Shown here piece by piece: positions 15,576 to 63,570 of a stretch of DNA of 64,000 nucleotides (the first letter of the stretch is position 1; every line of letters starts with the position of its first letter). The notes under the pieces were generated by a model that saw only the letters and a program-made list of their open reading frames with translations, ran no database searches and was not told the DNA's origin. Made by a program: the position numbers and the translations under genes. Origin of the DNA: Amoebophrya sp. A120 (Eukaryota; Protista; Dinoflagellata); NCBI GenBank assembly GCA_905178155.1, contig CAJINV010000013.1, positions 1,546,833 to 1,610,832 of the forward strand, written 5' to 3'.

Positions 15576-15576
15576 T

Positions 15577-31613: not shown

Positions 31614-34506
31614 TCAATAACCAGCGTCACTGGAGGCGCTGCTGCTGGCCCCACTCCCATACACCGTGGACTTGGGTGATTCCTCCTCGCCAAGATTGAG
31701 GCCGCCATGCTGCTATGCATTGCAAAAGCATATCGTACTAGTACAAAAACAAATTGCATGACAAATTTTTATCAGAAAAAAAAATGCAAGATGCAATGCT
31801 GATTCAGCTATACAAACTAGATTTGTCACGCTGCACTGCAAAATTAGTACGAGTACGATACTTTTGCAGAGCGTAGCTGCACCGGAAAGGTGATTTTGCT
31901 GGGGTGTCGGTACTTCTTCTTGACCACAATGCTCTTCCCCAGCGCGCTCCTCTCGTCTTCGGACGCACTGGTATCCCCATCGGCCGTTTCGAAGATGATT
32001 TTCTGCTCCTCCGCGGTCAGCACGAGTTCCTCCTCCTGTGGATCGACTTTGTCCACTTGGCGGCCGAAGGCGGTGAAAAGGAAGCACCCGGCGCTGACGA
32101 TAAAAAACGCCAAAATTTGCCACGAGGTCACCGCGTTGTGAAAGATCAGGACGGACAGCAGGGCGGTCGCCGGCGTCTTCAGGTTTCCCACCACCATCAT
32201 GGTGGTGGGCCCCACCCGGCCGATCAACAAAAAAGCCAGCAGGTTGAACAGTGCGGCGAAGGACGCGGACCCGGCAAGCCACAGGGCCCCAGCGGCTGGC
32301 AGCTTCGTCATTTCCACCCAGGGCCGGCCCCCCTCGTAGTGGGAGGACGCCAGGAGGAACAGGACGAGGGACAACGGCGAGGAGTAGAACAGCAGGGTAA
32401 TCGGGTCCAGCTTCTCGTGCTCATTCGTTCCGTCAATCAACATGCCCTGCAGCGCCGCTTTCAACGCACGCAGGAAGGCGGAACTCAGGCTCACAATCAC
32501 GCCGACCTGTGAATGGGTTGAGAAAAAAATTCTGGACGCCTTCTTCATTCGCGCAAGCAGATGATGCTGAGGCAACAAAGAAGTAGTCGTACTCAAATTC
32601 ACAAACAACTTTCATCAGGCGCAGGCCTGCTTCAAGACAAAGGCACAACACAACCTCGTCAATTTCGCCGAAGTATAATCTCTGTCGTAGCTAGTAGTTA
32701 TACCGGAATTTATTTTATTGGTGAAAAATAAGGACAAGAGCTCTACAGCTAGTGTCGAAGTACATTCATTAGTATGAACAACCCAATCATGATCGTTCAT
32801 AAGTACCCAAACGAACGTTTTCTCCGCGGACTGTTCGCCCCAGGCCGCCAAAGCACCGCCGGCGCACACCGGAATGAGGGCCAAGTAGGCCATATCAAAT
32901 GTAAAAATGTCCGGGTCTGGAAGAATGCCAGACTTGTCATGCAGGTTTTTCATGACCCATGAGGTCTGGTATGTAGGACATAGCATGACAAATTCTGTGC
33001 GAGTCCGAGTTCTTTCATGCCTATCCTGCATGAGAAACTGCCTCTCGGTTAGGTCAAAAGTGGACAGCTTTTGGCAATCATGCAACACAGATTTCTGCAC
33101 GATCCAGATTTAGCATGACAAGTTGCTTTGTTCCAGACCCAGACATTTTTGCATTTGATAGGCCACCAAGTTGTAGCGCTTGGACATCAAACTGACGGCG
33201 CAGAGGACGGACCAAATGGGGGTGGTGTTCTGCAGCATTTGGTGCAGCGACGGGTACAGGTACAGCAGCGCCACGTTGCCGCAAGCAATCGACAAGGCAC
33301 CCAGCACGCAGAACGGCGCAACGCGGGCGGACGTCCGGAAGTACGCATACGCTTTCTCGCCGAAGGTGAGCGGTAGTTGATGTTCGGCGGAAGAGGAGGT
33401 GGAGGACCGGGCCGTGTTACTATCTTGGTCCGTGATCGCCGCCCGTCGCTCTCTCGCTGCCGGCAGCTTGTCTTTCTGGAACCACGCCACGCAGATGGCG
33501 GACAGGACAAAGGAAAACAACATGTGCACAGTATCGAGCGCAAATACCTCGTCTGGAAGATCTGGAATACTGCCATGCTTGTACTGCTTGTGCTTGTCCG
33601 GCTTTGGCATGACAATGATTTTCACGAACACAATTTCAATGGCAAGATGCATATTGCGGAAAAGCGGGAATTTCGTTTCACGACTTGCCGTGCGCAACAG
33701 GCAGCTAAAAAATGACTCAGCGGAATTGCATTAGACAATTTTAATTACGGTTTTTACTTCTTGTCGTGTAGATATTTCTATGCCTATTCGCAGCCGCGCG
33801 TGCAAAAAGAAGTAGCATCACACCCTTCCAGACCCAGCGGTACTATTTGCGAGGCATACATGGATGTGACAAACAAGGGGTACTTGAACCCATGGGAAAC
33901 GTACAGGATTTTGACGGACGTGGACATGAACATGGACACGAGGAAATTCGCCAGCACCACCAGAAGGGTCGTCCGCAGGTCATAACTCTGATGGTTGTAC
34001 GTGTATTCGAATGAGGACCATCGTACCGCACTGGTGGGAGCAGCCCCCGTGCCCGCCGACGCAGCTGCTGCTCCCGCTGCTGCAACATTAATATCCTGCT
34101 CGTGGTTGATACTTCTGTAGTTATCCGCGTCCTCGGGGCTGCCACTGCTGTTGCCTTCGTCCCTGCTCATCTGCTCGCCCAAGTGGCGAATTCTATTTCT
34201 GCTCGTACTTGTGGTGTTTCCCGAATGGACAAGTTGTGCACGACTTCTGTCGAGATCTAGATCCTTCGCAGCGCTATGGTGCATGTAGAATTCATGGGGT
34301 TGAGCAGCAGCAGTACTGTTTGCACTTCCACCGCGGCTCTTGTTCGGAGTACCAGGGGGTGCCCTGTGGTCCTCCTCCCGCTCGCTCGGAGAGGTTGACA
34401 ACACACCCCCACCAGCATTGATCACACCGACCGAGATCTTGCGCTTCGAACCCTGCACCGGGGTTGCCAGGTGCAGATTCATCGCACTCCCGCGGCCCTG
34501 AAACAT
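31614..34506 (-). CDS. Triose-phosphate/nucleotide-sugar transporter family (TPT, SLC35E-like), ~604 aa; 3 IEs plus one GT-AG intron (~32507-32812)
   Basis: KILYVSHGFKYPLFVTSM-HM, GNVALLYLYPSLHQML..TTPIW, GGALAAWGE, LLFYSSP and VGPTTMMVVGNLK are typical TPT motifs across multiple TMs. Confidence 0.9.
31714..31875. mobile_element. Introner element, short distinct family (162 bp)
   Basis: TATGCATTGCAAAAG..TATCGTACT TIR; perfect GCTGC direct repeat. Confidence 0.85.
32893..33160. mobile_element. Introner element, family A
   Basis: TIR; perfect GGCCA direct repeat; joins YNLVA-YLALIP. Confidence 0.92.
33532..33858. mobile_element. Introner element, family A-like, divergent
   Basis: Weak TIR; flanks CACAG/CATGG; element+5 restores conserved VTSM-HMLF. 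Confidence 0.75.
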
Positions 34507-35747: not shown

Positions 35748-38457
35748 TTACACGACCCGCCCGACCGCAACATCACCGAGTTCCTGTGCGACTTTTTGTT
35801 GCGTGCCGACACTCGCGCCGCGGTAGGAGGCGGGGATCAGGGCGTTGGCAAAGTCCATGTCGTTGTTCACTTGTTTGGTGTGGATAAATTGGGCCATCTT
35901 CATATTACAATGAAAAATGCCCCCACCCCCGAACTTGGGAGCATTTGTATTGCAAACCTTTCCAAATGAAACATTCGCCCTCTTGCATCTATCAGCATCA
36001 CAGGATTTCAATCGCGAATAGCTAAAATTTGTATTGCAAAAGACCCCAGCAAGAGCGGCACTTTTCATGCAAGCGATGCGATACACGCCTACATTCTGCA
36101 TCAGAAAGATTCATACTCCTTTCATGTATGACAAAAAATTTTCATTTGGGAACTTCGCATCACAAATTTTTGCAATTTAGGGGTGGGGGGCACTTTTCAC
36201 TGTAATACTTCATCGCCTCCTTTAGTGTCAGCTTGTACCGATCCTCCTCGTCAAACTCCTTGTACAGGAGGTACCTGTTGTGAAAGTGGTGATACTCTTT
36301 TGCCTATTGTTTCCATGGTACCCATGAAGATGCAGGCAGCAGCAGGAAAACGAAAAACGAAACGCAAATCAAAACTATAACCGCCTAGGAGGACATCAAG
36401 CAATCAAAACATTAACCTGTTTGCTCTAGTACCACTGAGTATTTGTCAGCGCAGGGATTGGCACGTCGAAGTATGAAAAGAAAAGGAGACAAGAAATACT
36501 AAGTCACCCAACACTGTAGTTTTTCACTGCCGTTGTCTGAGTTCACAACAAGAGCTGAAATTATACAGATGTTGACGAGAGTTGTGGAACGAGTCTCAAG
36601 CTTCTCCCACGCGGCTGCACGGCAGATATCGCCGATGAATAATCAGTGCTGGTGCCTACTTACAAACAAGACCTATACACAAGACCGTCACAATTACTGT
36701 GATCGGAACTGATAAATGCAAACTGACTCGCAGCAGCAACTTTTTTCGGGTGTGGGTGTCGGTCCTTGTGCTGGTTTGCCTCTAGTACATATGCATCAAA
36801 CACCAGTTTGGCGAAGGCCGTGATCTCCCCCTTATTCCACGTGATATTGCCGTCTCTATCGCTGTCATTCTGTTTTGTATTTGAAAACAACAATTTGCAT
36901 CACGACACACACATCTAGATAGGAGCTACCTACGCAGATGCACAAGATTAGAGGGAGGTGAGAAACAGAAAAGCTTCTATTTCGTCCGAACAGTAGATCA
37001 AGGTTGTTGCGTATTATATGTTTGGAGCGAATACCGCCTGAAACTATCAAATGTAAGAATGTCTGTGTCTGGATGAGTACAAGGTTTGTCATGCATATTT
37101 TCCATGAGGCATGATGTCTGTGATGCATGCCTAGCATCACAGATTCTGCGAGAGCTTTCTGATGCTCCTACCGCATGAGAAATCCCCTCTTTGCGTAGCA
37201 ACAAGTGGACCTCTTTTCCTGTTCATGCAATATATACAGGTTTTTTTTAGCATCCAAATGCAGCATCACAAGTTGCACCCTTCCAGACCCAGACATTTTT
37301 ACATTCCATAGAAACAATCTGGTGACTATGTCAGTGTCGCCGGTGCTCTTCTCCCAATCATACATGGACTTTCCGCTCAAGGTGCCCCTCGTCGCCTCGT
37401 ATCAAATGTAAAAATGTCTGGGTCTGGAAGAATGCAACTTGTGATGCTGAATTTGGATTCCGAAAAATGTGTATTGCATGATGAGCAGCAAAGGCAATGC
37501 AATTTTTGCTACGCGGAGAGGGCATTTGTCATGCGGAACAGGCATCGCGAAGCATTCAAAAAATCTGTGACGCTAGGGCATGCTTCACAGACATCATGGC
37601 CAATGCAAAACATGCATGACAAGTCTCAGAATCTTCCAGACCCAGACATTTCTACATTTGATACCTCGCTCATCCGTTCCATTTCTGCTGACACCGGCTT
37701 GGACCCTTTAGACCCTTTTGTTATCTGTTCGTGCAACGGGATCAAGTGGTGCTGCGACGACATCTGCGAGATCGAGGTGCGAATCGTGTGGTGCGCGTGG
37801 TGGTCGGATATCCCCTGCGCCTTTTCCAGCGACGCCCGAAATTGCTATCCCGTGGAAATAAAGCAAAAGGAAAAACAAAACGCGTAAGAACCCGCGGGAG
37901 TCTTATGTATGATCGACCCCAGTGTATAGCCAACGACCAAAGTCTTGACGACTACTTCTTGTGGAAGCTGCAAATCCAGAAGACGATTGGCATGGCAATG
38001 CCAAGTGCCCCGCCGAGAATTATTGTTCTTGTTATAGTAATTCCTCTCTCTTTCCAGCACGTAGCTGCATCAGATTGTTTTCCCTCGCGGCCATGCCGAC
38101 GCCGTGTATCGTGTGTAGGTTCGCGTCGATCTCGTCATCCCCCGTGTTGATGGTGTGCGGCTGCGGGTGCAGGTTCGTGAGGAGATTTGGCGCGTTTCCG
38201 GCGTTTGTTGTGGCGGAAGTGAGCTTGACAATGGGTGGCAGGTGGGCAGAAGGGTCATCGTTATCGTTCACCAGCGAAAACCTCGTCGGCAGGGAATTCA
38301 GCTGGATCGGCTTGGGCTTGTAGTCAGTGAAATTCGTTTGCACCGCGTACGCAACTTGCAGACGAGGGTGCTGGATCACCTGGGAACGGGAAGGAAAAAG
38401 AAAGTGTTTTCCATGATTACACGGAGGTTGTGCAAGAACTACGGGAAAAAAAGTCAT
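35748..38457 (-). CDS. Multi-exon EF-hand-like protein (3 IEs plus canonical introns; boundaries approximate)
   Basis: Spliced RLFQA-NDSDRDGNITWNKGE (EF-loop-like) and LYKEFDEEDRYKLTLKEAMK-MAQF; IE joins are in frame. Confidence 0.55.
35903..36207. mobile_element. Introner element, family C
   Basis: TATTACA.TGAAAA.TGCCCCC TIR; perfect CTTCA direct repeat. Confidence 0.9.
37045..37310. mobile_element. Introner element, family A
   Basis: TIR; perfect GAAAC direct repeat. Confidence 0.9.
37400..37663. mobile_element. Introner element, family A (opposite orientation to the 37045 and 41732 copies)
   Basis: TIR; perfect CCTCG direct repeat; can be spliced as GT-AG. Confidence 0.92.
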
Positions 38458-39293
38458 ACAAATTTAAGTAAAATTCATGATCTGGGTCACACTGTACAGG
38501 ATCATGCTGACAACATACAATGAAAAACACAGTCCTCGCACACTACAGCTAACAGGTACTGGCTGCATCAGTTGCGGCAGGTCACCGAAGAGACTCGGGG
38601 TTTCGTCTGTCATTTTTTCTTGTTGTGAAGCTATAATGTAACTCAGATTCTAGATAATATCGGTATCCGTATGATCATACAGGTTTTTCTACTTCTTCAC
38701 GGAAACTCCTAAAACTGATGTACTAGTAATTCACTCTTCCACAATCACCAGATTGCGAAAGAACCAAAACCAGCACGTGAATCGGCCAAGCAATTCGCCA
38801 AGCAGTAGAACGGAAGAAACTTTAGCAGAGACCTCTCTTGCTTCGCTCAAGCAGGCGGAAGGACGTAACAAGCGAAAGCCGCCTCAGGAGCTGTGCCGCC
38901 AGTGCATAAACAATATCCAATGGCAACGGGACTGCTTCCGCATGTTTTCTTTGATCTACATAAGTAACGAAGACACACGACAGTACGCAAGACCTGGAGT
39001 GATGATTCGAACACGGAAAATGAAGATATGGTCGCCAGACACCATTTTCTCCTGCATCAGATGCACAGAGCGGGCGAATCCTACACATAATGCCTCGCGT
39101 AGAAAGGAAATGTAGACAAGGACAACTTGGTCGTGATACAAACAGTTGTAGGGGTAGGTCGAAGGGGGCACAAATACCTCTGCCTAGGAGGCCCAAAAGA
39201 CCGTTTGTTTTTTCCACTTTTTGGCGTCGAGTTTGTTCATCCTATGTATGTTGTAGTTGAAGTCCGTGTTTGTTTGTTGTCGTCAATACGCCA

Positions 39294-39706
39294 CTACATT
39301 CTCCTCTCTGGTGGCTTGCCGCAAGGTTGTATCATGGCCTGGATCTGGTTGTACCGCACTCTTGCTATGCTTTCGTTTTCTATCACCGAAAACAAAGCGC
39401 ACCGGTTAAACCTGATGGTGTAAGAAAGAGTGTAATTGACTTGTTTCACATCGAAAGAGTTTCACTTTCGTTTTTTTCGAACGCGCAAGCAAAGAAAGTG
39501 CATGTTACTACATCAACTAAAAAAAAAACTTACCTTGATGCGTGGCTGGCATGCGAGTCTCGGTGCACCGTGGTCATCCATTCCCATTTCGTGGTGTCTG
39601 GCCCCCCGCACCCGGTGTACTTACTCTGGATGTGCTCCATCTGGGCATGGAGGTTGAACTTCTTCAAGCCCATGTCCACATTCTGCTGTGCAACGTGGAC
39701 CGACAT
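39294..39706 (-). CDS. SF3B5: Splicing factor 3B subunit 5 (SF3b10/Ysf3), 96 aa; exons 39534-39706 and 39294-39411
   Basis: FNLHAQMEHIQSKYTGCGGPDTTKWEWMTTVHRDS...IENESIARVRYN..AMIQPCGKPP matches the SF3B5 family as I know it; canonical GTAAGT...CAG intron of 122 bp. Confidence 0.93.
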
Positions 39707-40887: not shown

Positions 40888-43800
40888 TTAATCATCCTCG
40901 TCGTGCTTGTCGTGGTCCTTTTTGGTATCAATACCAGTTCTAGTTGTGGTTCTTTTTGCTCTACTTCTACTTGTCGGCCCGGAGCCGGAAGCAGAATTTC
41001 CCTTACTGCTCTTGTCTTGACGCCCCTTCATCTTGCTGCTCTGTTCCACAGCTGCTCCACCGTTGTCCTCGGCCGAGTGACCTCCTCCTCGTCCTGGACG
41101 GTTTTGGTTTTTCATCACATGAGGCTTTTTCGACGAAGTACCTCCTGAAGTGGACTTCTCCTCCGCCAAAACGTTGTCGGTCTGGTCAGGTAACGTGATT
41201 TCTTCTTCGGTACAACTTTCGCGAATTTTCCTCTGAATGTCCTCCACCGTCAAGTCGTCCCGAATCGCGTCGATCACCCGGTCCACGGTGTACTTCGCAT
41301 TCGGAAAGGCCTTGTCGTTCCGCAACTTGTAGAGGCAAAACCCGTCTCGCGCTTGGTCGAACCGGCACTCCCAGACGCTACCATAGGACGAGGTGGTGTC
41401 ACCGGGACACGAAGAACTGCCGGAGGAAGGCTTGTTGTTTTTGCGCTGATCAACAAGAACCTCGACCTCGACGTCAGGCCCAGTTTTTGTTTTATTTTGT
41501 TCCGCAGTGTAAGCTCTAGTGCGTTGCTTGCAGAAAAGGTTTTCCATCATCAGCCTGGCCGCAACGTCCCACTGCCGCAGCTTCTTGTGCGTAAAACCTG
41601 AACCAGAAGCGAGGGAAGGACAGCTGTTTTGCTCTTCACGATTTGCAGTGCTGTTCATATTTCTTTTTCTTTCCTCCTCCTCTGCCCAGACCAAGTCGAA
41701 GACTTTCGCAAGCACCTCCTCTTTGGTGGACTATCAAATGTAAAAATGTCTGGGTCTGGAAGATTCTGACACTTGTCATGCACGTTTTGCATGAGCCCTG
41801 ATGTCTGTGATGCACGCCCTAGCATCACAGATTTTTTGAGAGCTTCTTGATGCCTATTCCGCATGACAAATGCCCTCTCCGCGTAGCAAGAATTACATTC
41901 CCTTATGGTACTCATGCAATACAGATTTTTTTTGGAATCCAAATCCAGCGTCACAAGTTGCATTCTTCCAGACCCAGACATTTGTACATTTGATATGGAC
42001 TTGCAGGTTCCAAACTTCACAAACTCATTGTTGTCCACGATGAAAAGGTCGAGGGAAAGAAGGGACGAAGCGGGTGTAATCATTTCTTCGTCTGCATGGA
42101 GATTTGCTCCTCCTTCTTCCATTTTCAGCATCTGATTGATCAGGTCCGCATCGGAGGAGGATGACGACGTTTTGACAGCGCTAGTGGAGGTTCGCCGACT
42201 CCGTCTGGTTCTTTTAGGACTTCTGGTCACTCCTTCGCTCCTCCTTTGCCGTCGCTTTCGTCGCGAAGATGCTTTTCCGTCCTTCTCCGCCGCTTTATTT
42301 TGCGTTTGCTCGCTGTTGCTGCTGTTCTTTTCTCGTTCATGTCGCTTGCGCTTGCGGGCTAAATGACAATGCCCTACATCTTCCAGCTGGTCTTGGTGAA
42401 AATCCAGAGTGGAGCCCTCATCTGCGTTTATTTCTGCCATTTCGTCGTCGTTTTCGAGGTCGTGACTGTCATCTTCGAGAACTACATCATCATCCCTATC
42501 CAGGTGGTCCGAGTTGCTCCTATCGCCCGAAAGAGACCACGACCTTGATTTCTTTTCCACATCACGATCTTCTGCACTATCATCAGATTCGTCTTCCACG
42601 TCGTCACAATCCACATCCACTTCCTCTTCAGCCGAAGTGTTGCAAGAAAAGTCCTCCGCTTCGTCCTCCAAATCGGTTTGTAGATCGCTTATCTCTTCTT
42701 CATCACTTTCCTGCGCGGACGAAAACCGCACCAGAAAATCGACCGTGTTCAGCTCCATGGGTTTCCACTTGAAAGCCGTCTTGACTGTTTGGCACCGGTA
42801 CGGTTCGTGCAAGGGGGTGAACACAAACCCGTCGTTCTCGTGGTTGGCCCGTTTCGTCTCCTCCCGACACTCGTCGAAATACTTCATCTTGTAAAACTGC
42901 TTGCACCGGACGTGCAGGAGGTTTTCCAACGGGTGTTTGCACGTCTTCATGTTCACGTCGTCGTCATCCAGAGGGAGTAGTACTTCATCTCCCTTTATTT
43001 GCCGTACACGCAGCGCAGCCCCGCTGGAAAAATTCTCAACAGCAAGCTCCTGGTCATTGCACACTTCTCCCACACCATGTTCCAAAACGTCTTGCTCGAC
43101 TTGAGTTCCAGTTTCCGCCCCGCACGATGAACTGCAGCCTCTTGCTGTTCTCGCCCCGAACGGTGATTTCATATCTGCAGAGGGAGCGGTCGCGGTTGTG
43201 CCCTTGTTGATATTATTTTTGCCCGCACACATCCGCAGAATGGCGGCGCTCCACTCGTGCTCAGCCTTGAGGATGACGGGCAGCGTGTGCTGGCGGTTGG
43301 CCAGGTGCGTGTTGAATCCCGTGTTGCAGCGTCGCGAGGCCGCGAGGAGCGCGTTTGTGTCTTCCAGTGTTCCGTTCAAATCCGAGAACACAATGCTCCA
43401 CACCGGCTGATACGTGGCGGCGGCCTTCAACCGGAAATCCAGGGGCAGGTAGGAAACATCCTTCCCGTCCTGCACCACGCAGTCAAAAGCTAGGAAGAAG
43501 AGTTTATTTTTTCTCTGCTCCCCCGAACCCGTGGAGGCGGAAGCATCTGGGATTCTCTCGACACACAGCTCCCCATCCAGGAGCCAATCCGGCTGGAAGC
43601 AGTACCGGAGAAACTGGTTTAGTCCTCCTCCGCCTGCACGACGGCGGCCCCTGCCATCCTTTTCCCCCGCCCGGTCGTCGACCTCGTGCACGACATCAGC
43701 AGCCAAGATCGTCGAAGCAGTACTGGGCCCCGTGATATCGTGCTGCTGGTCCCCCGCGTCAGTTGTGCTCGTCCGCTTCTTGCACGAAGTTGTACTAGAC

Positions 43801-44668
43801 CCGCCCTGGTTATGGTGCAGCTTCATGCGGTGCTCGTCGTGGTTCTTGTCGTACCACCTGATCTCCTCTATCTTGCATTTTCGGTCGATCAGAAACACTC
43901 GCGCGTTCTTCTCCAAGAGAAAGTAGCGGTCCCCGTCCGTCTTTTTATGGAAGCGTCAGGTTTGAAATCGTCAAAGTTGAAATACTTTGTAATGCATAAA
44001 ATGCATGACCCGAGGTACGTGTGTTGCAGAGCAGGCAAGTGAGGCCGATTGTAAGCCTGTTTGGGGTTACAGCTCGAGCTGCTAAAGTAGCATGAGAAAA
44101 TCGCTCTTCTTTGCCTAAACAGCACGACAGACTGGATTTGGGTGCTCGCGAAATTTGTCATGCGCCACTTGGAAACTGAGTCTCCAACTGGCATCCCATC
44201 GATTTTGTGCATCACAAATTTTTCGATTTTGTCAATTTCGATTCTGACACATCCATACTTTTCACAAACCGCGTAGTCCTCGACTTGGAACGCAAAGGGT
44301 TTGGTTTCGGGTTCCCCGTCCCGGTTGTACTCCTTTATCGGGACGGTGTCGAACAAGAATTCCTTGGTCAGCGACACGGGCTGCATCCCCGGGAACTGGA
44401 GCCGCTGGTCCCCGTACCGCACGTAGTCGCAAATTAGCTGCAGCAGGAAGCGCCGTTCCTCGGGGCACGTCACCAGGCTCAGGTAGCCGTCCAGCGTTTG
44501 CTTCTTAAACGCCTCCAGAGAGGCCGTTGCGGTGGAGACGACGACCTGGGGAGGTCCGGACGGCGCAAGAACTACGCCGTGGGACTTCGATTGCAGTTCT
44601 CCTCCACCAGGGGGGCATGGCATGGCTGAGGGGTGCTGCATAGTACTCGCGCTCTGCCGCCCGGTCAT
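40888..44668 (-). CDS. mRNA capping enzyme guanylyltransferase (Ceg1-like, ~1064 aa, long low-complexity insertions); 2 IEs
   Basis: FPGMQPVSL, motif I VCEK-TDG, III LLDGE, IIIa FLAFD, IV DGFVF, V FKWKP, VI RNDKAFPN. Confidence 0.92.
41732..41995. mobile_element. Introner element, family A
   Basis: TIR; perfect TGGAC direct repeat; joins CKS-TKEEV. Confidence 0.92.
43946..44257. mobile_element. Introner element, family B, inside the KxDG motif
   Basis: TIR; perfect CTTTT direct repeat. Confidence 0.92.
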
Positions 44669-47049
44669 TCGCAAATAGCCATGAGTCTACTTGCGGCTAA
44701 AGGTTGAGAGCAGTAGAGGCTTAGGCTCTACCAACTAGTTCACATGGGACCACATCGGTGAGCATCACCTAGCCGCAATTGAAAACTTTTCACGTTCTAC
44801 TGGGTAGATCACACTTTTTTTCACTTGAATAAAATAGTACGTGTCTTATATGATTGAGTAGACATGTCCAGTAGCGAGCTCGCGATGTCCTTGGAGCAAA
44901 AAAATGAAATTAGTACTCGATGGGCAATACTTCCCCTAAATGTCTAAACCTGAATCTATCAGAATTATGCTCCTCTTCTGTTAAAGTCATTTTCAAAGAA
45001 GCATGTAGTAGTAGAAGTGATGTGCTGTCAAGCGTATCAAGATCCCAGCGACTCACTTTTTTTTTTCTGCCTTTTCTCAGTCTTCTCAAAAGACTGGGAA
45101 AATCGCTTTGATCCTGACGCACATTCCGTGTCGTTCATTGCTATTTCAACATAGGAGATTTAGTCACACGAGATCGCCGTAGTCGTGATCGTGCCATAAA
45201 TTGTTTGTCGTTTTTCCAGATCCATCGATTTTTGTGTGGAGCTGCAGATCGGACCAAGTAGAAGTTGCACGCACGACATCTTCAAGGATCATTCTTTACT
45301 GTGGTTCGCCCAATAAACTGACTCAGAAATGGAGATTGAGGATCGCTCTGCGTCGTTCTTCTTTTCGCATCCGAGGAAGGCATGCCAACGTCGACGCGAT
45401 CCAGGCGAAATTTTACCGGAGCCAAAACCGTAGTCACATGCTGGAGATCGCAACAAGGAGCTATTAGCTGATCGAGCCTTTTTTTCATTGTCAAACAACC
45501 AACCGACGGCGAGAGTAAATCTAAGACAACGATCCGTTGTTTCCTGCACTAAAAAGGAGACCACTTTGGATCTCTCACAAAATGTGTACAAAAACCAGGA
45601 TTTTTGAAGCCGAAGATAAATGAACGCTCGCGCTCGGCACGGCCACGTGATAAAAAGACGGAAACGGAACATCTTTCAAAAAATTTCAAAACTTTTTGGT
45701 CAACAGCTGTAGTAGTCGTTCGAAGATTTTTTCGATGAAGAAATTCACCACATTCCTACTTTTTTTCCTATGCGAAATCTACTTCTTGCAATCGCTTTGC
45801 GATTATATATTTCTTTTCGACAATGTGTATCGGTTTCTTCCGGCACGCAACCCAGCTTCATCGATTTTCGCGCGCCTTGGTGGAATTCTAACTATGTAAG
45901 TACATCCAAAATAATCGTCATTTTTGTACAGGTGCTGGAGAGGGAAACTTTGCAAACGTCCCTGTGGGGATCAGGACTGGTATTCAACTCATTGCAGTGA
46001 GAATGACATCGTGATGCTCGCAAATTAGTTGATTCTCCTCCTGCATTGTAGGACGACGAGAGAACCTACTTCTGAATTTATTAGAAAAAAGCCTGCCCGA
46101 CGCTCTGCGTTTTTAATTATTGTTCTGAAAACCTCCCCTGCCCCCAGAGCTCTTCGAAGTGTTTGCATTGCAAACTTTCCGCATGGAAACCCCTTGTAGG
46201 ATTCCATTCCGAGGAGGCCGCCGACACAGATGTATCGCCACTTACGGTCGAAAATTTGTCATGCTGATAGCCAATGCACGAGAACGGACGCGGCAGATGT
46301 TTCCATGCATAATAGAAGGGGATCTGTGCATGACAAAGATTTACTCCCCATTCTGGGGACATAGGAGTATTCTCCACGTTGATAATCAGCGGCATCTCTT
46401 CTATTTTTAGAAGTGCGTAGAGTTTTAAAAAAAGCTGAAAGCTCAAAGAATTAATACTACGGCGAAGTCATTGCTATATCTAGAGATGACAACAAGCACA
46501 CCCTGCATACCAGACTTTGAACTCATTGCAGTCTTCTCTTGAAGTCCTCTTTGTTGCGAACTGTTTATCATTATGTGCAAGGGTGGGTTACCTGTAGCAC
46601 GTGTTTCTTCGGAAACAAGTTAACTTAAACTTTTTTGTGTTACATCATTGACTATGGTTACTAGTAGCCAGCGGTAGGGTAATATTTATACATATAATTC
46701 GACAAAATCCAATCACAACAAATTCTCGGAACAAATGTTTTTGCTAGAATTAGGAAAAAAGTTGAACGAATAACGTAGGTCTCTACCACCAACCTTAAAC
46801 TTTTGTGAATTTCTCAAGCAGCTTCTTCGTACAGCGATGAAGCTTTGTTCTTTGACTCCCGTTTCCTTGTTTCCTCCTCCGCACAATGAAAGAAGGGATA
46901 CAGAAGTATAAACGTATCCTTTTTTTCACTTCTTCAAGAACGCGTGGAACAACCGATTGAATACTGCCCGTCCCGGCGTCACCTCGAAAGTTGCCGTCTT
47001 GGAGGACCCCGGTTTTACGCTGAAGCTCGCTTTTGCTACTTTTCGCCCG

Positions 47050-47805: not shown

Positions 47806-49703
47806 GAGCAGCTGTTCTTGCTTATTCTTTTCCATGTTGCCACTCTGCACGTTCTATGCATTGTTACAGTATCGCACTCGTACTCATCGTAATGCTGATG
47901 CTGCATCACAGATTTCTGTCTCGCATATCAACATAAAAATGTTCTTTATGAAAAGTACATAATTGCGCTGTGTTCATCTCCCTGCCGAAACCTTATTTCA
48001 TGCAATCCCTACAAACGCGATACTTTTGCACGGGGTACGTTGAAAGTGAGCTGCTTGTTGGTAGAAGATCCAGAACCAGCAGCAGCAGCACGGGAAGTTC
48101 TTGTAAGACCCGCTTCCATCTTCTCGTCATCGTCCTCACGAGGACCAGGCCCCGTTCGCTTTGCAGCTTTCGTGTTCAACGTCGCTACCTTGGCGGAGCT
48201 GCTGTCGTGCGTGGGATCTGTAATTGTGCCAACAAGTAGTCCGCCCTGATCATGAGAATTCCCAGTGACTAACTGCGTCCGGCTTGTCAACAGGGTGACT
48301 GGGGCAGCGGTTGTGGTTGTGCCATCACTGTCACAATTTCCATTGTCCACCGGGGTCTGAAGACACGGAATCGTGGGCTCCATGGGATCGTCGCAACTCC
48401 CTGCAGTATACCGCAGCACGGTGGGAGTGGCAGCTCCTCCCGAAAAATCCCCGAAGATTTTCCATCCCTCGGAGCCCGTCTGACCGCTCTGCTCCTTTGC
48501 GCGAGGCATTTGCCCGGTGACGCGAGACAGAATTTCGCACGCCGAATTTGGCAGAGAAGTGCCATTATCTGTATAATTTTTACGTATTTTTTAAATATTT
48601 TTTCTCGACGTGACCGCCAACGGTGCACACTACTTGCGCTAATCATGACTTACTCGTCCTGTGTAGTGCTGCGCAGGTACTATGCATAGGCTTGAAACGG
48701 ACACGACAAGCACGAGCGGAAGTAGAAGAGATCGCTTCTTGTATACCAGCTCGATAGACAACTACAGAAACTGAAATCACATCAAACTAAAGTTGCGACA
48801 ACATGATCATGATGCTCCTGATTGCGTACGTGTAGAAGAACCTACCGCCGACAAGAAATAAAACCTGACAACTTGCAAGTGGATGAGTAAGCTATACCAT
48901 TTCGCACCACTGTCGTTGTCCGGAAGCCTCGACAATCCGAATCCGAGACGCAGCGCGACTCACATTCTTTTGTGTTTTTGACGTCGACGGGGTCCAACCC
49001 GGCCTGTAAAAAACTCGTCCGTGACGCATGCTACAGAAAAGCACACCCATACCAGAAAATACTTACTTATAGTATTTCTATTTGTGTTGCTAAGAAATTG
49101 GTGTCACTACCTCTCTCGCTGACGCTGAGCCAGCAAGAGAGGTGCTTTTTCGCCACTTATCAAAATGCATATCATCGTGGGATCGATATTATGCGGATCA
49201 AGATCATTAAAAGGGGCGACAATTTTCTAATTCTGAACGCAAAAACGTTGTTCTTTTGGGTACGCCAGAAAATCCTGACAAATCGACGACGAACAGGTAT
49301 GCGTGTGCTTTTCTGAAGGATATGACTCCATAATTTCATACTTGGACGTATCAATCTCATACCACCAGTCCCATTTGACATTACATGTTTGAGTGCGAGG
49401 CGGCAGGGTTGTGGTTGGACAGATCGTGGTGATACGCGCGAGTCCCAAATTGGGACTGTGGCACCATATCCACAAAAAAAACCTGTGTTAGCGCATGAGC
49501 TGTTCTACTAGTAAGAACTTTCCATTGCCAACAATGCAAGAAAGATGAACGATTTGCTATGCTGGACATAATCCTACTTCAAGGCCTCCTTTGTTTTCTG
49601 AATGCCGAAACTTGTTCCATTTGCCGCACTAGCAGTTGGTGGATTTTTTCTGTCATGCAGGGAATATTTGGCGAGAAGATGCTGGCGCCACTTACTGTCT
49701 TCA

Positions 49704-52700: not shown

Positions 52701-55359
52701 TAAACTTGTCGTGCAGAATTTCCATGCCCCATGAGGTTTGGAAAAATGCCGGACCTAGCATAACAGATTCTGCGAGGTCTCTAACTCTATCATGCCTGTA
52801 CTGCATGAGAAACTTCCTCTGATGGTGGTCAGAAAAGGGCACCTTTTGGCGATCGCGCAAGACAGATTTTTGTGTGATCCATCGGACGCATCACAAGTTC
52901 GATCCTTCGAGACCCAGACATATTTGCATTTGATATCTTTTTCACCAGCGCCGATTGCGCCTCTTTCATCTCCGCGGAAGTAGAGGGAGTTGTATCTTCG
53001 GACTTCTTATGCACTGCAAATATGTCTGGGTCTGGAAGATGTAAAGTTGTGATGCGTATTTCACATGACACACACATCTCTCATGCATAGCCAGCAAAAG
53101 ATGCCCACTTCCTGTCACCAAAATGGGGGATTTGTCATGCGCATCAGGCATTGCGAAACCTTCTCGAAATCTGTGATGCTGGGGCTTCCTTACCAGACCT
53201 TCTGTGTCATGTTGGGAGACTAAGGGCAGGGCGTCCCTGTTTAAACAACGAGACTACAAACTTAAACCGCGTACTCGGTAAACTCTAAGATAGAAACTTG
53301 AACAGCGCGATTTCTATCGAGAGACAGCAACAAAACCTCCTGGGACGGCTGGGACGTGAGTTTTGTTTCTATCTAGGTAGAAATAGCACTGTGCAAACTT
53401 CGTATCCCAGCACCGAGGGAACAAAAAAACCGTACAAAAGGAGTGAAGCGATACGCTATGACACAGTCCCCCCTACAGCAAAAAACCATCCTAAAAAATG
53501 GTATCTCGTATTTCTAGCAGAACGGTAAAAAGTCCGGAAGAGGAGTTGCGATCGTAGCACCAGCGTCCAAGTCCAAGGACTATCATGCAAATGGCCAGGT
53601 AAACCTCGAGGTCGGTATGACAAGCATGACAAACCAAGACGACCAGGTTAGAAACGTGCTACGAGAACAGAGGTGAGCATGACCAAACCGAGAAACCGCA
53701 TGACAAAAAACCGAGAAACCGAGAGACCTTCTGTGTCATGCAAAAACAGTAACAGCACGACACCTTCCAGACCCAGACATATTTACATTTGATACTTCGT
53801 TCTCGTCGTGTCTCCTACAAGCGAGGAAGATTTCACAGCTTTATGCGCCTGCTGCTGTGCAGCTTCATGCTCGTCCACAGAAGCTTCCAACTTGCCCACG
53901 GCCGACGCCAACACAGGGGGCTCACCAGACTTTATCTTCTTTGCTAGTGCAGCCTGCGCTTCCTTCGTGCTCCTGTCGGCGATCGAGGTGGAGCTGAGTT
54001 GTGCTCCTGCAGTAGTGCCGGTCTCCTCATGGCCCGCCGCGTCAGCGTTCCCTTGGAGTTCTCGTAGTTGCGGTTGTTCCTCGTCACTTCTAGGTTTTGC
54101 AGCTGCTGAGACGCCGCTCAAATGATCTTCTACGGGGTTTCTAGTTGTATGTAGCTCGACCTTCATTTTCTTCATTGTCTCCTGTCCCTGTCCTCGTTCC
54201 TGTGCTGCTTTACTAGCGGGGGTCAAAGCAGCAAAAGACGACGCGGAGGCTGATGAAGAAGAGGCCAGTGTTGTTGTGCTGGGCGAACTAGTACTTTTAA
54301 GGCTTTTCTTTGAGGAGGGATTAGTAACTCTCGTACGAAAAAAGTGTTTCACTGCAAGTACTTACTTCGCAAGTTCTGCATCGCAAGTTCGTTACACATG
54401 ATAAACAAAACTTGCCATGTTGTGTGGTTCCTCAAAAGAAAATCACCGAGATTTTCAACAATATCTTGCATATGGAGCACGCCAAATACAACTTCTGTGC
54501 TCCGTTCTATGCGTCACAAGTTCACGGCGAAACAGTTTTTTCTTGCAATAATACTCGGCGGTGGCTTGATGTGCGCAGTGCCAGTCACAACCGCATCGGT
54601 AGCCGTATAGAAGTACGTCGTCGAACTACACAATGCTGCCGCGAGGCCAGCGCAGGAAAGGAGTTTCTTCACCCTAAGTGGTCGCCCCCTTGTTCTAGAC
54701 AGGCATTTTAGAAGAGGCTCCACCTTCTGCTTGTGGCCATTTGCAGCAGAAGAAGATGTTCTTGTCGCGTGCGGCCTGCTCCTCTCTACTAGTACTACAG
54801 GAGAACAAAAAGCTGCGCTACTTCGGTGCTGCTTCAGAGTTTTTTCTTCCCGCCGCCGCTCTCGTCGCTGGTGCCGGTGAAGAGTTACAAGATTGCTCTT
54901 TCCCCTCGGCGGCAAAAACTTTTGCCACTTCGTGTTCTTTCTTGGGTGATGATTTTCATCCTGCTCCGCGTAGAAGTCTTGTTTCATCCTACTATGACGC
55001 GAACTAGAACTTTCGCTCGGTTCATTTTTAGTGATGAAGCTCAGGAAGGCCACACCCGCGGGGATCGTCGCTGTCATCTCGGGGGCCTGGACCGCTTGTA
55101 GAATTGTTTTTTTAGAAGTGGTTGACGTTCCTGGGCCGCTTGTTACCATGCCAGATCCAATTCTTTCTTTCCGAGGAAAGGAAAGAGTAAAATCATCCCG
55201 AGCATTTGCACCTCTCTGGCTACGATGCTCCGCCGGCGTGGGCGCCGTAGATTCGGTCACAACTTGGCTGAGTAACGGCACAAATGCAACATCCGCGTCT
55301 GAAGTTTCATGTCTCGCTTTTCTTCCTCTTTCCCTACCGCCCGAGCTACTTGCCTCCAT
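49704..55359 (-). CDS. Large multi-exon protein: KEAQxALxKKI repeats followed by Cys-rich modules separated by Thr-rich linkers (ends uncertain)
   Basis: In-frame joins across 5 IEs; four modules of the pattern C..CxxNxC..CCx(K/R)P..CPT; the canonical-intron joins between blocks were not traced. Confidence 0.6.
50813..51090. mobile_element. Introner element, family A
   Basis: Perfect TTCTT direct repeat; joins EENK-KCPTTT. Confidence 0.85.
51229..51469. mobile_element. Introner element, family A
   Basis: Perfect GGGTC direct repeat; joins DVVT-LCSENEC. Confidence 0.85.
52659..52935. mobile_element. Introner element, family A
   Basis: Perfect TCTTT direct repeat; joins LVKK-IKAGKP. Confidence 0.88.
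53008..53794. mobile_element. Introner element, family A, carrying a nested insertion
   Basis: TIRs; flanks CTTCT/CTTCG; 258 bp after removing the insert and one duplicate. Confidence 0.85.
53212..53723 (+). mobile_element. Nested 512-bp insertion, possible truncated non-LTR/SINE-like element
   Basis: Perfect 17-bp duplication AGACCTTCTGTGTCATG (53195-53211, 53724-53740); AAACCGAG-repeat tail; no TIR seen. Confidence 0.75.
54329..54550. mobile_element. Introner element, family D, degenerate
   Basis: TCTCGTACGAAAAAAGTGTTTCAC / GAAACAGTTTTTTCTTGCAATA; element+5 joins PPS-INPSSKK. Confidence 0.65.
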
Positions 55360-59013: not shown

Positions 59014-60744
59014 TCAGTAGACAATTCCATTCACTTTCTTCCACGTCCTAAATACCTGTGCGCACTGGTCTTTCAAAATGTTCATTTTCGGCTGGTTTCG
59101 CGTAAGGTCCTTGCTTGCCTCCTCGTGGCAATTGTGTTTCCGGTGATGGTGGTGACGGTGCTTTTTTGACGAGGGGTCCTGTTCTTCGGCGCTATTGCTT
59201 ATTTGCTTCACCTCAGACGAGATAGCAGTGGTGGACTGTGGCGCGGCGCTAGTAGATGATGAAACTCCGGGGATATTAACATTATCTTCACCAAGAACGG
59301 ACATTTGGACTGCTCCGAGTTCAAGAACTGGAGAAGCCGGGCGAGCCTGTTCGTCTTCTGCTCTGCCGTGCTCTACAACGGCTGCAGCAGTTGTAGTCGT
59401 ACTACTCCCCGTAGTTGCAGAGGGCGTGGCAAGAGCTTGTTTCGTTTCCACAGTAAAATTAGCAGGCTTTTGTTCTGTGCTACTCGCCCCCGCCCCCAAG
59501 CCTTCGTACAGCTTGACCCTTCCCACGTTTGCCCAACAGAGCGCCGCAATGCTCATTTCGTTCAGGTACATCTCGCTCCTCTCGAAGGCGCAGTGCAGCA
59601 CGCTCGTTTCCTTCGGCAAGTGGTGCTTCTGCAACTTCGCACAGGCCAGCTCGATGCAAGCCGTTATCGGGGAGATGGTTGGGTCCTCGCCCTTATGTTC
59701 ATCCAGAGATGTTGTTGAGCCGACCACCTGCAGCGCTTCCTCTGCCCGAAACTCCTGCCCGTCAACAATCAACACGACCGCCGGGGTCCCGACGCTACTT
59801 CGCATTTGTGCCGGATCTAGCGACGGGTGCGTACTGGAGTGGTGGTGGTGTTTTTTAGCGTTAATATTCTTATCTTCGTTTGCATAATTTAAATTCTTCC
59901 CTTGGAGCTCCTCGTTGCTTTTCACGATTTCGATGGTCAAAAACTTGCCCCGAAACTTGCTGTCCTGCTTTTTAGAAGGAGCTGGGGATGCGGTTGAATT
60001 TTTGGTACTAGTAGCACCATCAGCCTCAGCTTTAGTAGTAGTGTCCACTTCTGGCGATGCGGCTGCTTCTGATTTATTTTCGACGGCATTCACTCCAAGA
60101 CGACTCGATGACCCCTTATCGTTGCTGGTCGGGCCGCCTTTAATATTCCCTTGCTCCGCTTGTCTTTTATCCAGCCACTTTTGTACCCCGTCCATTTCGT
60201 CGTAGAAAGCCTTGTCGTTGAAGCCGAAAGCCGCAGCGGTGTCTCGGTCCACTCCCACATACACATTGCGAATCCAGGGCGCACGCGCGATCGCCCCGCG
60301 GCACATCGGACACGGTTCCGCGGTGGTGTACAGGTCGTAGGAGGGCGTTTTTGTAGTACTGTTTTTCAAAATTATATCGGGATCAACTACATCCCCGCTG
60401 ACGGCTGAAGTAGTCGGGTTCATGTTATTTGCATCGCCGCACACTATTGGTGAGTCAGCGTCTATTCCCGTCGTAGTTGATGAAAAAATTCGGTTCGCGG
60501 CCACACGCAACGCGTTCATCTCGCCGTGCCGGGTCGGATTGTTTTCCAGCAGTACCGTGTTGTGCTCGCAGGACACCAAGCGATTGGTGCGCCAGTTGAC
60601 AATCGAGCAGCCGAAGGGCCCCCCGTCTTTCGCAACGACCCCGGCGTAGGCACTGGCACAGGCGGCGAGCATCCATGCCTGTTCGGTGTCATTACAGGAG
60701 GCCGTGGCGCTGCCAGCACACGAGGAGAAGCACGGCAGTGGCAT
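59014..60744 (-). CDS. Zn-dependent nucleobase/nucleoside deaminase (GuaD/guanosine deaminase-like) with a degenerate second domain
   Basis: GGPFG, HNTV, PTRHGEMNA (HxE), LYTTAEPCPMC (PCxxC), AFGFND and C-terminal Tyr. Confidence 0.85.
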   Translation of the reverse strand: MPLPCFSSCAGSATASCNDTEQAWMLAACASAYAGVVAKDGGPFGCSIVNWRTNRLVSCEHNTVLLENNPTRHGEMNALRVAANRIFSSTTTGIDADSPIVCGDANNMNPTTSAVSGDVVDPDIILKNSTTKTPSYDLYTTAEPCPMCRGAIARAPWIRNVYVGVDRDTAAAFGFNDKAFYDEMDGVQKWLDKRQAEQGNIKGGPTSNDKGSSSRLGVNAVENKSEAAASPEVDTTTKAEADGATSTKNSTASPAPSKKQDSKFRGKFLTIEIVKSNEELQGKNLNYANEDKNINAKKHHHHSSTHPSLDPAQMRSSVGTPAVVLIVDGQEFRAEEALQVVGSTTSLDEHKGEDPTISPITACIELACAKLQKHHLPKETSVLHCAFERSEMYLNEMSIAALCWANVGRVKLYEGLGAGASSTEQKPANFTVETKQALATPSATTGSSTTTTAAAVVEHGRAEDEQARPASPVLELGAVQMSVLGEDNVNIPGVSSSTSAAPQSTTAISSEVKQISNSAEEQDPSSKKHRHHHHRKHNCHEEASKDLTRNQPKMNILKDQCAQVFRTWKKVNGIVY

Positions 60745-61140
60745 GTTGTTTGTGCTAGTTAGAAAGCCACCAGTTGCTGGAATTTACATAAGTACTTACA
60801 ATGCAACGTAGTCTTCTGGTGCGTGCGCGTGGTGCGTTGTAAAAAGGAACTAAAAAAAGCGTGGAAAGTAGAGACAACTGCAGCGTCACCCGAGTCCTGT
60901 TTAGAGCCGCTTGCTTCAAACTGATGCGACAACTTGAAAGTCGCTTGTGGCCTCTAAGAAAAATGGCGTGAGGCTTATATCAAAAACATGAGAGAATATC
61001 AGGTGCGCAGGGGGATACGATATCCCTGTACTGAGTACAAACGAAAACCGAGAGGCCACAGCATATCTATGTATGCAAACTTGGACGAGGTAAGTACTAC
61101 CGCACGACCTGTTAGTAGGCAAGGGAATTTCGGCCGCCAC

Positions 61141-61745: not shown

Positions 61746-62469
61746 TCAGTAAAACCTCAGTCGGGTGAATATTTCGTTGATGCGCTTCGGATACTCGTCG
61801 TGCGAGGCGACCAGGTCTGTATGGAAGCAAAACACCGAGGAGTCTGAGAAGTTTACTCAACTTTGTACTTTTGCAGCTCGGGGCAACTACACAGAAATGA
61901 CGTCGAAAAACTGCCTTTAGCAACTTCTCGAACGAACGAAACCGATTCTACTTGAGAGACTTCTCTACTAGACTCGCGATTTTTTCACCTCCATACTCAG
62001 ACAGGTCGTGGTTCTCAACGCCATTGATCTCGGTCACCGGACCCAGGCCCGCAACGGCAATCTTCCACTCCATGTAGCGGTAGAGAAATCCGAGAATCCA
62101 ATCCGAAGTGATGTATCAAAAGGAAAAATCCCCCCTCCCCATATCAAAGTTGCTATCTGTGTTGCGGGATTTGTGTACACAAATCAGCTCTGTCTTGCAG
62201 TAAAGGACTGCAGGCACATGCGAAGCCTGGAAAGGGCTGGCGGCAAGTGGGCGCTCAGCATGGCAGACCTCTGCCCTGTTGGCGCAGCAGCATTACAAAT
62301 CGCCGGCGTAAAGCGGCGGAAGCTCTAGCTTTGCTCTCTTGCAAGACAGACCTGATTTGTGACCCCAAATCAGCATCACAAACTTTCAAAAGGATGCCTT
62401 TTCGATATGGGGAGGGGGGATTTTTCCTTGCGATATGATGTAACCGTTGATCAGACGGCCGGAGACGAC
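61746..62469 (-). CDS. 3' exons of a DUF726/TMCO4-like protein; 2 IEs
   Basis: Spliced [48 protein letters not shown]-(D/E)[16 protein letters not shown] matches the DUF726 C-terminus as I recall it; upstream exons not located. Confidence 0.8.
61820..61995. mobile_element. Introner element, short distinct family (176 bp)
   Basis: TATGGA...GAGTCT TIR; flanks GTCTG/CTCAG; element+5 restores the frame. Confidence 0.75.
62114..62435. mobile_element. Introner element, family C
   Basis: 322 bp; perfect TGATG direct repeat. Confidence 0.9.
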
Positions 62470-63570
62470 CTGGAATGCGAATGATAAAGATACAATATGG
62501 CCATACTAACTACGGATTTTCAAAGTAGTCCAAAAAATTTCAGGGTCTCCGCGCGTATGCCTCACTGTGTTGTCTTTGCTTATGCGAAATCTGTCGCCCG
62601 CTAATGAGGCTGTGGGTGCGCAGATTCATTGAACTAGTGAACTAGGCAGGTTGCTACTGGGGCCGCCAGTTTCTGGAGCTGCGGACCCGGGTCATGTTTG
62701 AATCTTTCGTAAGATCCTCTTGGTCGTGGAGGCAATCGCACCCCCAAGAGAAGCCAAGGGGCTTCCCACAGCTTCTTGCACTCCCCATGTGCGCCGGGGC
62801 TGTAGGTGATGGCCCCGAACTCTTCGACGAGGCAGAAGGCGTTGAAATTGTGGCCCTGTGTCACATCCACGATGGTGCTGCGCCGTTCTTCCGACACGTC
62901 CCGCGTAGCCTCTTCGACAGAGGATGGGTGGCAGACCCAGTCTTCACGCTGCTCTTTTCAACCCACCACCCCCCCTTCGCTGGAAATATCAGCGCCCCCG
63001 CCTTCCCCTTCAATTTTCGTCCTAGTCCACACCTGCCGGGTTTTTTGCTTCTGCGCTGCGCCCGCCTGCTTTTGCATAGAGCAGTGGGCGCCGAACCAGG
63101 CGGGCCGCGCTTCAGTAGCGCAGCCACATGCGGCACAACTTCACCGCGCGAAGCCCGCAGGCGGCAGCCCGTCCATAACAATGGCCGCGAGTGTCTTTGG
63201 TGTGGGGAGTTTTCAAGGCCGTAGTGTTTTGCGCCTTGATTTAGCCGACACGAACTGCAGGGGGCGGGCGCACTGGAAAAAGGCGAGCGAATCTCTCGGC
63301 GGCCTATGAAGGACAATCCAGTGGCCAACCGGAAGTCCAACACAGTAGGGCTTCAGCTGCGCTGGCTCTAAACCTGTACATAGTACAGACCTACGTACGT
63401 ATGCGCCACACCTTCTCTTATCCGAATACAAGACTCTTCCGAAGCTCAAGCAAAGCGAGAAAAACGAAAGACGCAAGCGAAGCGCGATCCTACTCGGGCA
63501 TGCGAATCAGGTAGAAGAAGGGAACCGAAAAAGGCGAGCTTGTCCGAGGACCGAAAAAGCATATCTCATC

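What the first reader, a model, noticed from the sequence alone, without database searches (positions are those of the whole stretch)
43921..44280. Element inserted immediately after the catalytic lysine of the mRNA capping enzyme
Motif I reads YAVCEK|312-bp IE + AAAAG|TDGDRY. This Lys forms the covalent enzyme-GMP intermediate in an essential enzyme, and all other motifs are intact. No GT-AG reading is possible within the repeat. It is the best internal evidence for nucleotide-exact non-canonical excision.
Basis: partly seen in the sequence, partly recalled or inferred. Interest (0 to 1): 0.8.

Follow-up and report, generated by a model that had tools for sequence, protein, structure and literature searches.

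The report
Transposon intron splits capping-enzyme active site
A 312-letter mobile element sits inside the catalytic motif of the mRNA-capping enzyme gene of the parasite Amoebophrya and is missing, to the exact letter, from sequencing runs that are likely RNA, although it lacks normal GT-AG intron ends; it is one more case of the tens of thousands of such introns already described in this organism.

Summary
On the minus strand a 312-bp TAT…ATA element (43946-44257), flanked by a 5-nt direct repeat AAAAG, interrupts motif I (KTDG) of an mRNA guanylyltransferase. None of the six equivalent cut positions reads GT-AG. Contigs of 4 of 4 likely-RNA runs (one sample) skip exactly 317 nt. A DNA-like run keeps the element and shows no joined form. 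Exact removal gives an open frame of 1,055 aa with all motifs; a 1-2 nt slip truncates it.

The gene matches a public Amoebophrya sp. A120 protein that lacks the first 364 residues, so that model has no catalytic lysine. The class is published: the introner elements of Farhat 2021 (29,850 in A120; GT-AA is a listed splice pair). At that density an insertion beside some catalytic codon is expected.

One refinement is inferred. A neighbouring decayed element with diverged repeats places the cut 1 nt before TAT and 4 nt after ATA. That would make this intron GT…AA and split the lysine codon itself (one case; RNA editing is an alternative). Verdict: real and spliced, a new member of a known kind.

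The parts
44259..44641 (-). Exon 1 coding part of the mRNA guanylyltransferase (ATG 44641; an in-frame ATG at 44668 would add 9 aa); FPGxQP motif and YAVCE-K. The boundary can lie anywhere in 44258-44263.
   Evidence: RNA-like contig X1 record 8 covers 44258-44974
44258..44260 (-). Codon of the motif I lysine (K128 counted from ATG 44641)
   Evidence: K-x-D-G-x-R in 61 of 77 homologues
44258..44262 (-). Upstream copy of the 5-nt direct repeat AAAAG (likely target-site duplication)
43946..44257 (-). 312-nt introner element, TAT…ATA ends, imperfect terminal inverted repeat, long hairpin
   Evidence: relatives at 7535-7841 and 19132-19490
43941..43945 (-). Downstream copy of the direct repeat AAAAG
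43942..44258 (-). The 317-nt intron in the inferred register (GT…AA); five other registers give the same mRNA
   Evidence: length; register inferred from 37842-38064
41997..43941 (-). Exon 2: rest of motif I and motifs III, IIIa, IV, V; Pfam PF01331
41732..41995 (-). Second introner element in the same gene (264 nt plus 5-nt repeat; 269 nt skipped)
   Evidence: joint 41726>41996 in X1, X2, X3; also removed in public protein P0001
40888..41727 (-). Exon 3 with the C-terminal OB domain (PF03919) and stop codon
37842..38064 (-). Decayed element-like intron in a neighbouring gene (CT…AA, 223 nt) whose two repeat copies differ at positions 4 and 5; fixes the cut register
   Evidence: joint 37841>38065 with no ambiguity in X1, X2, X3; 1 of 6 registers fits

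Best explanation
A MITE-like introner element, flanked by a likely 5-nt target-site duplication, interrupts motif I of the Amoebophrya mRNA guanylyltransferase gene, and the element plus one repeat copy (317 nt) is absent from likely-RNA contigs, which restores KTDG, most likely through splicing guided by the element's terminal hairpin. Shown: the anatomy, the exact 317-nt skip, the restored 1,055-aa frame, and the element's presence in a DNA-like run. Inferred: the hairpin brings the ends together and fixes the cut 1 nt before TAT and 4 nt after ATA whatever the flanking letters. The intron would then read GT…AA and the junction would fall inside the lysine codon (AA|G). Also inferred: the catalyst is a relaxed spliceosome (about 60%), because in this register the element's T and A sit at +2 and +3 as in the window's canonical GTA donors, and Farhat 2021 report most spliceosome parts but no U1.
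For: Joint 43940>44258 in 4 of 4 RNA-guessed contig runs; shorter side 23, 57, 40 and 73 nt, so 3 of 4 pass the tool's 31-nt bar. The X4 piece is contiguous, with 0 other letters and 0 gaps. X1-X3 also skip canonical GT-AG introns and have no depth in two of 30 bins, as RNA should. X5 contigs run from both flanks into the element at depth 27-30 with no joint. Unspliced read-through ends at 250 aa; slips of 1-2 nt stop at residues 128-171, and 3-nt slips break K-x-D-G. The exact form scores 125.7 bits against 110.5-116.7 for four GT-AG alternatives. In Toxoplasma Ceg, alanine at K, T, D or G of KTDG abolishes activity (trace left for T134A; PMC12215270). Register: only 1 of 6 registers reproduces the RNA joint at 37842-38064; element 37400-37663 reads GT-AG in that register; all 9 top A120 non-canonical pairs have T second, including GT-AA at 2%.
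Against: All four junction-bearing runs are contigs of one sample and one study, their RNA status is a guess by the tool, and junction depth is low (2-6.6). The one raw-read RNA run laid (X8) had no reads on the gene. X1 also holds an unspliced piece, 43540-43975, running from exon 2 into the element, so removal may be incomplete or the run may carry pre-mRNA or DNA. X5's kind is not on record, and contigs drop rare variants. The register rests on one decayed element, where an A-to-G edit would explain the same letter. Repeat composition does not separate register 1 (9 of 22 GT donors) from its mirror register 4 (8 of 22 AG acceptors), and 8 of the 9 published pairs also fit that mirror. No call bears directly on the catalyst.
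Confidence: 0.88

Rival explanations
1. The intron is removed exactly, but not by the spliceosome: a structure-guided nuclease and ligase, as proposed for euglenid nonconventional introns, cuts at the base of the hairpin.
For: No fixed end dinucleotides. Related elements lie in both orientations in this minus-strand gene block. U1 snRNA was not found in A120 (PMC7789003). Euglenid introns with inverted repeats are released as circles without a lariat (review PMC11282704).
Against: Most spliceosomal proteins and U2, U4, U5, U6 are reported in A120, and 15% of its canonical introns have the same repeat layout. The inferred register puts T, A at +2, +3 as in 3 of 3 RNA-supported canonical donors. 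Tunicate non-GT-AG introns are handled by an altered spliceosome (abstract of PMC13326754).
Confidence: 0.3
2. The skip is a reverse-transcriptase artefact: the enzyme jumps a strong hairpin between direct repeats ('falsitron'), and the gene is dead or unspliced.
For: A strong hairpin (z -4.9) with a direct repeat at its base is the layout I recall for such artefacts (PMC8240250, seen as a search listing only). An unspliced piece exists in X1.
Against: Every motif of the 1,055-aa frame is conserved. The joint at 37842-38064 has no matching letters at the cut and folds weakly (z -1.4), yet it is skipped in 3 of 3 runs, so skipping does not need microhomology. With 65% non-canonical introns most genes would be dead.
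Confidence: 0.04
3. The joined form comes from an allele or paralog without the element, and this copy is silent.
For: No whole genome was held, so a distant paralog was not searched for directly.
Against: The joined contigs match this locus with 0 other letters on both sides. X5 shows single flanking contigs and no joint. Among 1.84 billion representatives only P0001 passes 1e-10. None of the ten next hits looked up carries an Amoebophrya name (3 of 10 clusters are named), nor any named row among the 24 longer hits.
Confidence: 0.05

Closest known systems
Amoebophrya A120 introner elements / non-canonical introns (Farhat et al. 2021, PMC7789003)
   Same: Non-canonical ends, terminal inverted repeat, 5-nt direct repeat over the boundaries, TAT start, repeated copies, RNA-supported removal; GT-AA is among the listed predominant pairs (2%). 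The gene's product contains public protein P0001 of this strain letter for letter.
   Different: This subfamily lacks the A-run at positions 11-13 given for the A120 motif consensus. 'Capping' does not occur in the paper's main text, and the public model omits this intron and residues 1-364. The paper's Fig. 3 legend leaves the border position within the repeat unknown.
Introners of Symbiodinium, Polarella, Micromonas, Aureococcus (bioRxiv 10.1101/2020.10.14.339549; review PMC11282704)
   Same: DNA-transposon-like elements with target-site duplication that become introns; Polarella class 12 has a 5-nt duplication and can build its donor from the last repeat base plus the first element base.
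   Different: Those recruit G-starting donors and AG acceptors; here no AG acceptor is available in the inferred register.
Euglenid nonconventional introns (review PMC11282704)
   Same: Variable ends, end-to-end hairpin, repeats at the junction, likely MITE origin.
   Different: Different consensus and hairpin offset; released as circles. The excised form was not tested here.
Fritillaria non-GT-AG introns (PMC13326754, abstract only)
   Same: Mass transposon-derived non-canonical introns removed precisely.
   Different: There, fixed alternative end motifs and duplicated U2AF; here no fixed dinucleotides.
Toxoplasma guanylyltransferase TgCeg (PMC12215270) and fungal Ceg1
   Same: KTDG motif I, NTase motifs and a C-terminal OB domain.
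   Different: About twice as long (1,055 vs 509 aa), with long low-complexity inserts.

Membership tests
Amoebophrya introner element (Farhat 2021) | Intron with non GT-AG ends supported by RNA | tested here: met
   runs are RNA by the tool's guess and by skipping canonical introns
Amoebophrya introner element (Farhat 2021) | Inverted repeat joining the 5' and 3' ends (8-20 nt) | tested here: met
   Imperfect: 6 perfect terminal letters, 18 of 24 matching; ends paired in the fold. The paper's mismatch tolerance was not seen.
Amoebophrya introner element (Farhat 2021) | 3-5 nt direct repeat over the exon-intron boundaries | tested here: met
   AAAAG, 5 nt
Amoebophrya introner element (Farhat 2021) | Repeated in the genome | tested here: met
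   Two relatives in the window; single X5 pieces at depth 821 and 1,674 against 27-30 on the flanks (suggests tens of copies, not a copy number)
A120 majority end-motif consensus (descriptive subtype, not filed here) | TAT, seven variable letters, then three or more A | tested here: not met
   TAT present, but positions 11-13 read TCA; most other elements of the window do show the A-run
Canonical U2 intron | GT-AG (or GC/GA-AG) ends | tested here: not met
   0 of 6 registers
Spliceosomal intron of any ends | Lariat with branch point | not testable with these tools
   Only contigs cover the locus
MITE (non-autonomous TIR DNA transposon) | Short, terminal inverted repeats, fixed-length target-site duplication | tested here: met
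   312 nt; exact 5-nt repeat in 14 of 35 candidates, none at 3, 4 or 6+
MITE (non-autonomous TIR DNA transposon) | Cognate transposase in the genome | not testable with these tools
   No genome held; no transposase family in 11 long ORFs of the window; Farhat report none in A120, Gozashti 2025 list TIR-transposon introners there
mRNA guanylyltransferase (PF01331 + PF03919) | Motifs I, III, IIIa, IV, V, VI and OB domain | tested here: met
   motif names from PMC12215270, search patterns partly recalled and partly from alignment A1
mRNA guanylyltransferase (PF01331 + PF03919) | Covalent enzyme-GMP intermediate on the motif I lysine | not testable with these tools
   Inferred from TgCeg K133A

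The most novel reading that the evidence does not exclude
A120 introners are cut in one fixed register set by the hairpin (1 nt before TAT, 4 nt after ATA), regardless of the first and last letters. The catalytic lysine codon of the capping enzyme is then itself assembled across a GT…AA junction, and elements with diverged target-site repeats reveal this register genome-wide from RNA-seq that already exists.
Probability: 0.55. Interest if true: 0.5.

Novelty: new member of a known kind. Interest (0 to 1): 0.3.

Why it matters
The class is known, so this case does not overturn anything. It is still useful in three ways. It is a clean reporter for fidelity, since any slip destroys a catalytic motif. 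It corrects a public gene model that lacks the catalytic lysine. It suggests a simple way to settle the border position that the describing paper left open (use elements whose two repeat copies have diverged), which is a first step toward the unknown mechanism of U1-less, dinucleotide-free splicing.

Tried and rejected
No whole genome was held, so there was no direct paralog count or dN/dS. No listed holder was on record as RNA; RNA status was judged from skipped canonical introns. I laid 7 of the 10 listed runs (not X6, X9, X10). X8 covered only element ends and X7 only the element and a short upstream piece: uninformative.

GT-AG alternatives near the junction all lose K-x-D-G. One distant GA-AG pair (donor 44332) and two AT-AG pairs make a K-x-D-G by chance, but they delete or displace YAVCEK and are not the joint seen.

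Rfam: no match for 43900-44300. A PDB search with the unspliced read-through found nothing relevant. The Atlas could not read exon 2; on P0001 residues 95-180 it returned capping-enzyme clusters. An open-frame test of 'element + 5' against other lengths over 23 elements was inconclusive. Repeat composition did not separate register 1 from 4. The T/A at +2/+3 is fixed by how I chose the elements and is not a statistic.

Of 29 candidates (shuffles gave 1-4) I kept 22 and dropped 7 as redundant or chance-like: 7754-7988, 13765-14580, 23644-24102, 31911-32585, 36319-37079, 47855-48037, 61994-62527. Two look-ups of earlier scan findings returned nothing. The search 'Amoebophrya' + 'capping enzyme' gave two eIF4E papers, seen as listings only.

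Full report
Observation. On the minus strand the frame reads YAVCEK, then a 312-nt element (44257-43946) beginning TAT and ending ATA, then AAAAG and TDGDRY. AAAAG also precedes the element, so removing 317 nt can be drawn in six equivalent ways: TA-AG, GT-AA, AG-AA, AA-AA, AA-AA, AA-TA. None is GT-AG. The ends are an imperfect inverted repeat (18 of 24), and the RNA folds into a long hairpin (-106.6 kcal/mol, z -4.9, 0 of 100 shuffles). This is not chance: of 35 TAT…ATA candidates found without asking for a direct repeat, 14 have an exact 5-nt repeat and none has 3, 4 or 6+. Relatives of this element lie at 7535-7841 (opposite orientation) and 19132-19490.

The gene. Exon 2 matches PF01331 (4.5e-16) and exon 3 PF03919 (1.6e-07). 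Removing this element and a second one (41732-41995) gives a stop-free frame of 1,055 aa from ATG 44641, with KTDGDR at 128, LLDGEL 248, FLAFD 277, DGFVF 498, KWKP 519 and RNDKAFPN 912 (patterns partly recalled, the label Ia recalled). K-x-D-G-x-R is contiguous in 61 of 77 homologues, most often as CEKTDG. Unspliced, the frame stops at 250 aa. Slips of 1-2 nt stop at residues 128-171, and 3-nt slips break the motif. In Toxoplasma Ceg each alanine change in KTDG abolishes activity, with a trace left for T134A (PMC12215270, section 8 and passages read). The only close database protein is P0001, named Amoebophrya sp. A120 (CAD7966550.1). It equals residues 365-1055 of the spliced frame, so the public model has the second element removed but lacks motifs I, III and IIIa.

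RNA and DNA evidence. Ten runs were listed and seven laid. The joint 43940>44258, skipping 317 nt with 5 ambiguous letters, appears in X1, X2 and X3 (flagged 'between: not known') and in X4. In X4 a 151-nt piece lies at 43863-43940 and 44258-44330 with no other letters and no gaps. X1-X4 are RNA only by the tool's guess, but X1-X3 also skip GT-AG introns at 38380-38559 and 39412-39533 and have no depth in two of 30 bins. All four are one sample and one study, may be the data behind the public annotation, and have low depth (2-6.6). X5 behaves as DNA: even depth of 27-30 on both flanks, contigs running into the element from both sides, and no joint. Against a clean picture, X1 also has a piece 43540-43975 that runs from exon 2 into the element, so some unspliced form is present. 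The raw-read run X8 gave nothing on the gene.

Where the cut falls. The capping junction cannot tell, because its repeats are identical. A neighbouring intron can. At 37846-38063 lies a decayed element (TAC…ATA, ends 11 of 20 alike) flanked by GCAGC and GCAAT. The RNA joint 37841>38065, seen in X1, X2 and X3 without ambiguity, takes position 4 from the upstream copy and position 5 from the downstream copy. Only 1 of 6 registers reproduces it: a cut 1 nt before the element and 4 nt after it. In that register element 37400-37663 reads GT-AG, and the capping intron is 43942-44258, GT…AA, with the junction inside the lysine codon. All nine predominant A120 non-canonical pairs in Farhat's Table S4 have T second, and GT-AA is one of them. 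The limits are real. It is one element; A-to-G editing would give the same letter; 8 of the 9 published pairs also fit the mirror register; and repeat composition in 22 curated elements does not choose (9 GT donors in register 1, 8 AG acceptors in register 4). I put the register at about 55-60%.

Mechanism. Most likely a non-autonomous TIR element inserted with a 5-nt duplication and is removed with one repeat's worth of sequence by a spliceosome that uses the hairpin to place the ends (inferred, about 60% for the catalyst). In the inferred register the element supplies T, A at +2, +3 like the three RNA-supported canonical donors of the window. Farhat report most spliceosome parts, no U1, and the same repeat layout in 15% of canonical A120 introns. 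A nuclease-ligase route as in euglenids remains open (about 30%). A reverse-transcriptase artefact or an empty allele/paralog is unlikely (about 5% each), for the reasons given under rivals.

Comparison with what is known. Farhat et al. 2021 (PMC7789003; I read the abstract, sections 10, 11, 12, 16, 25, further passages, and searched the one supplement file, whose figures are not held) describe this class. A120 has 66,565 RNA-supported introns, 65% non-canonical, and 29,850 repeated ones, with TAT-start inverted repeats and 3-5 nt direct repeats. My arithmetic on their numbers gives 0.64 elements per kb of coding sequence: 2.0 expected in this 3.2-kb gene (2 found) and about 0.002 per codon. 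Across thousands of catalytic codons such a placement is expected several times, so it shows tolerance, not targeting. Other papers were seen as passages (PMC12130899, PMC12005148, PMC11282704, PMC11453091, bioRxiv 10.1101/2020.10.14.339549), abstract only (PMC13326754) or search listing only (PMC8240250). Searches showed no paper on this gene or on the register. Subscription papers are not in the library, and the unseen figures S19-S23 and Fig. 3 of Farhat may already favour this register.

Verdict. Real, spliced, exact, and a new member of a known kind. Interest 0.3. The added value is the corrected gene model and a testable rule for the cut position.

Noticed in passing
window 37035-37040 (-): A 6-nt micro-exon (in the inferred register) lies between element 37045-37310 and a canonical GT-AG intron 36870-37034. 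Contigs of X1-X3 carry its letters and the joined frame stays open.
   Followed up: partly
window 37842-38064 (-): Decayed element-like intron with CT…AA ends, weak fold and a pyrimidine-rich 3' end, still removed in 3 of 3 runs; used to infer the register.
   Followed up: yes
window 23644-24102 and 7535-8132: Pairs of elements only 35 and 39 nt apart, implying very short exons if both are spliced.
   Followed up: no
22 curated elements across the window: None has T as the last base of the upstream repeat (0 of 22, p 0.002, post hoc among 20 cells). Farhat list TT-AG at 2%, so this is weak.
   Followed up: partly
window 7881-8132, 23891-24102, 53008-53794: Three more elements whose repeats differ at one position; RNA over them would test the register. 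No lay calls were left.
   Followed up: no
window 53008-53794: 787-nt element, about three times the usual length, probably with an internal insertion.
   Followed up: no
window 19132-19490: Close relative of the capping-gene element with no matching 5-nt repeat at its ends.
   Followed up: no
window 15538-17570 and 63475-63984: Tandem repeat arrays (14-, 17-, 18- and 29-nt units; a 30-nt unit at the window end).
   Followed up: no
window 59017-60783 (-): ORF with a cytidine/deoxycytidylate deaminase domain (PF00383, 7.6e-13).
   Followed up: no
window 37400-37452 and 41733-41765: Raw RNA run X8 has reads only on element ends, nearly all at 90-95% identity, and none on genes: a different strain with related elements, or too little parasite RNA.
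   Followed up: no
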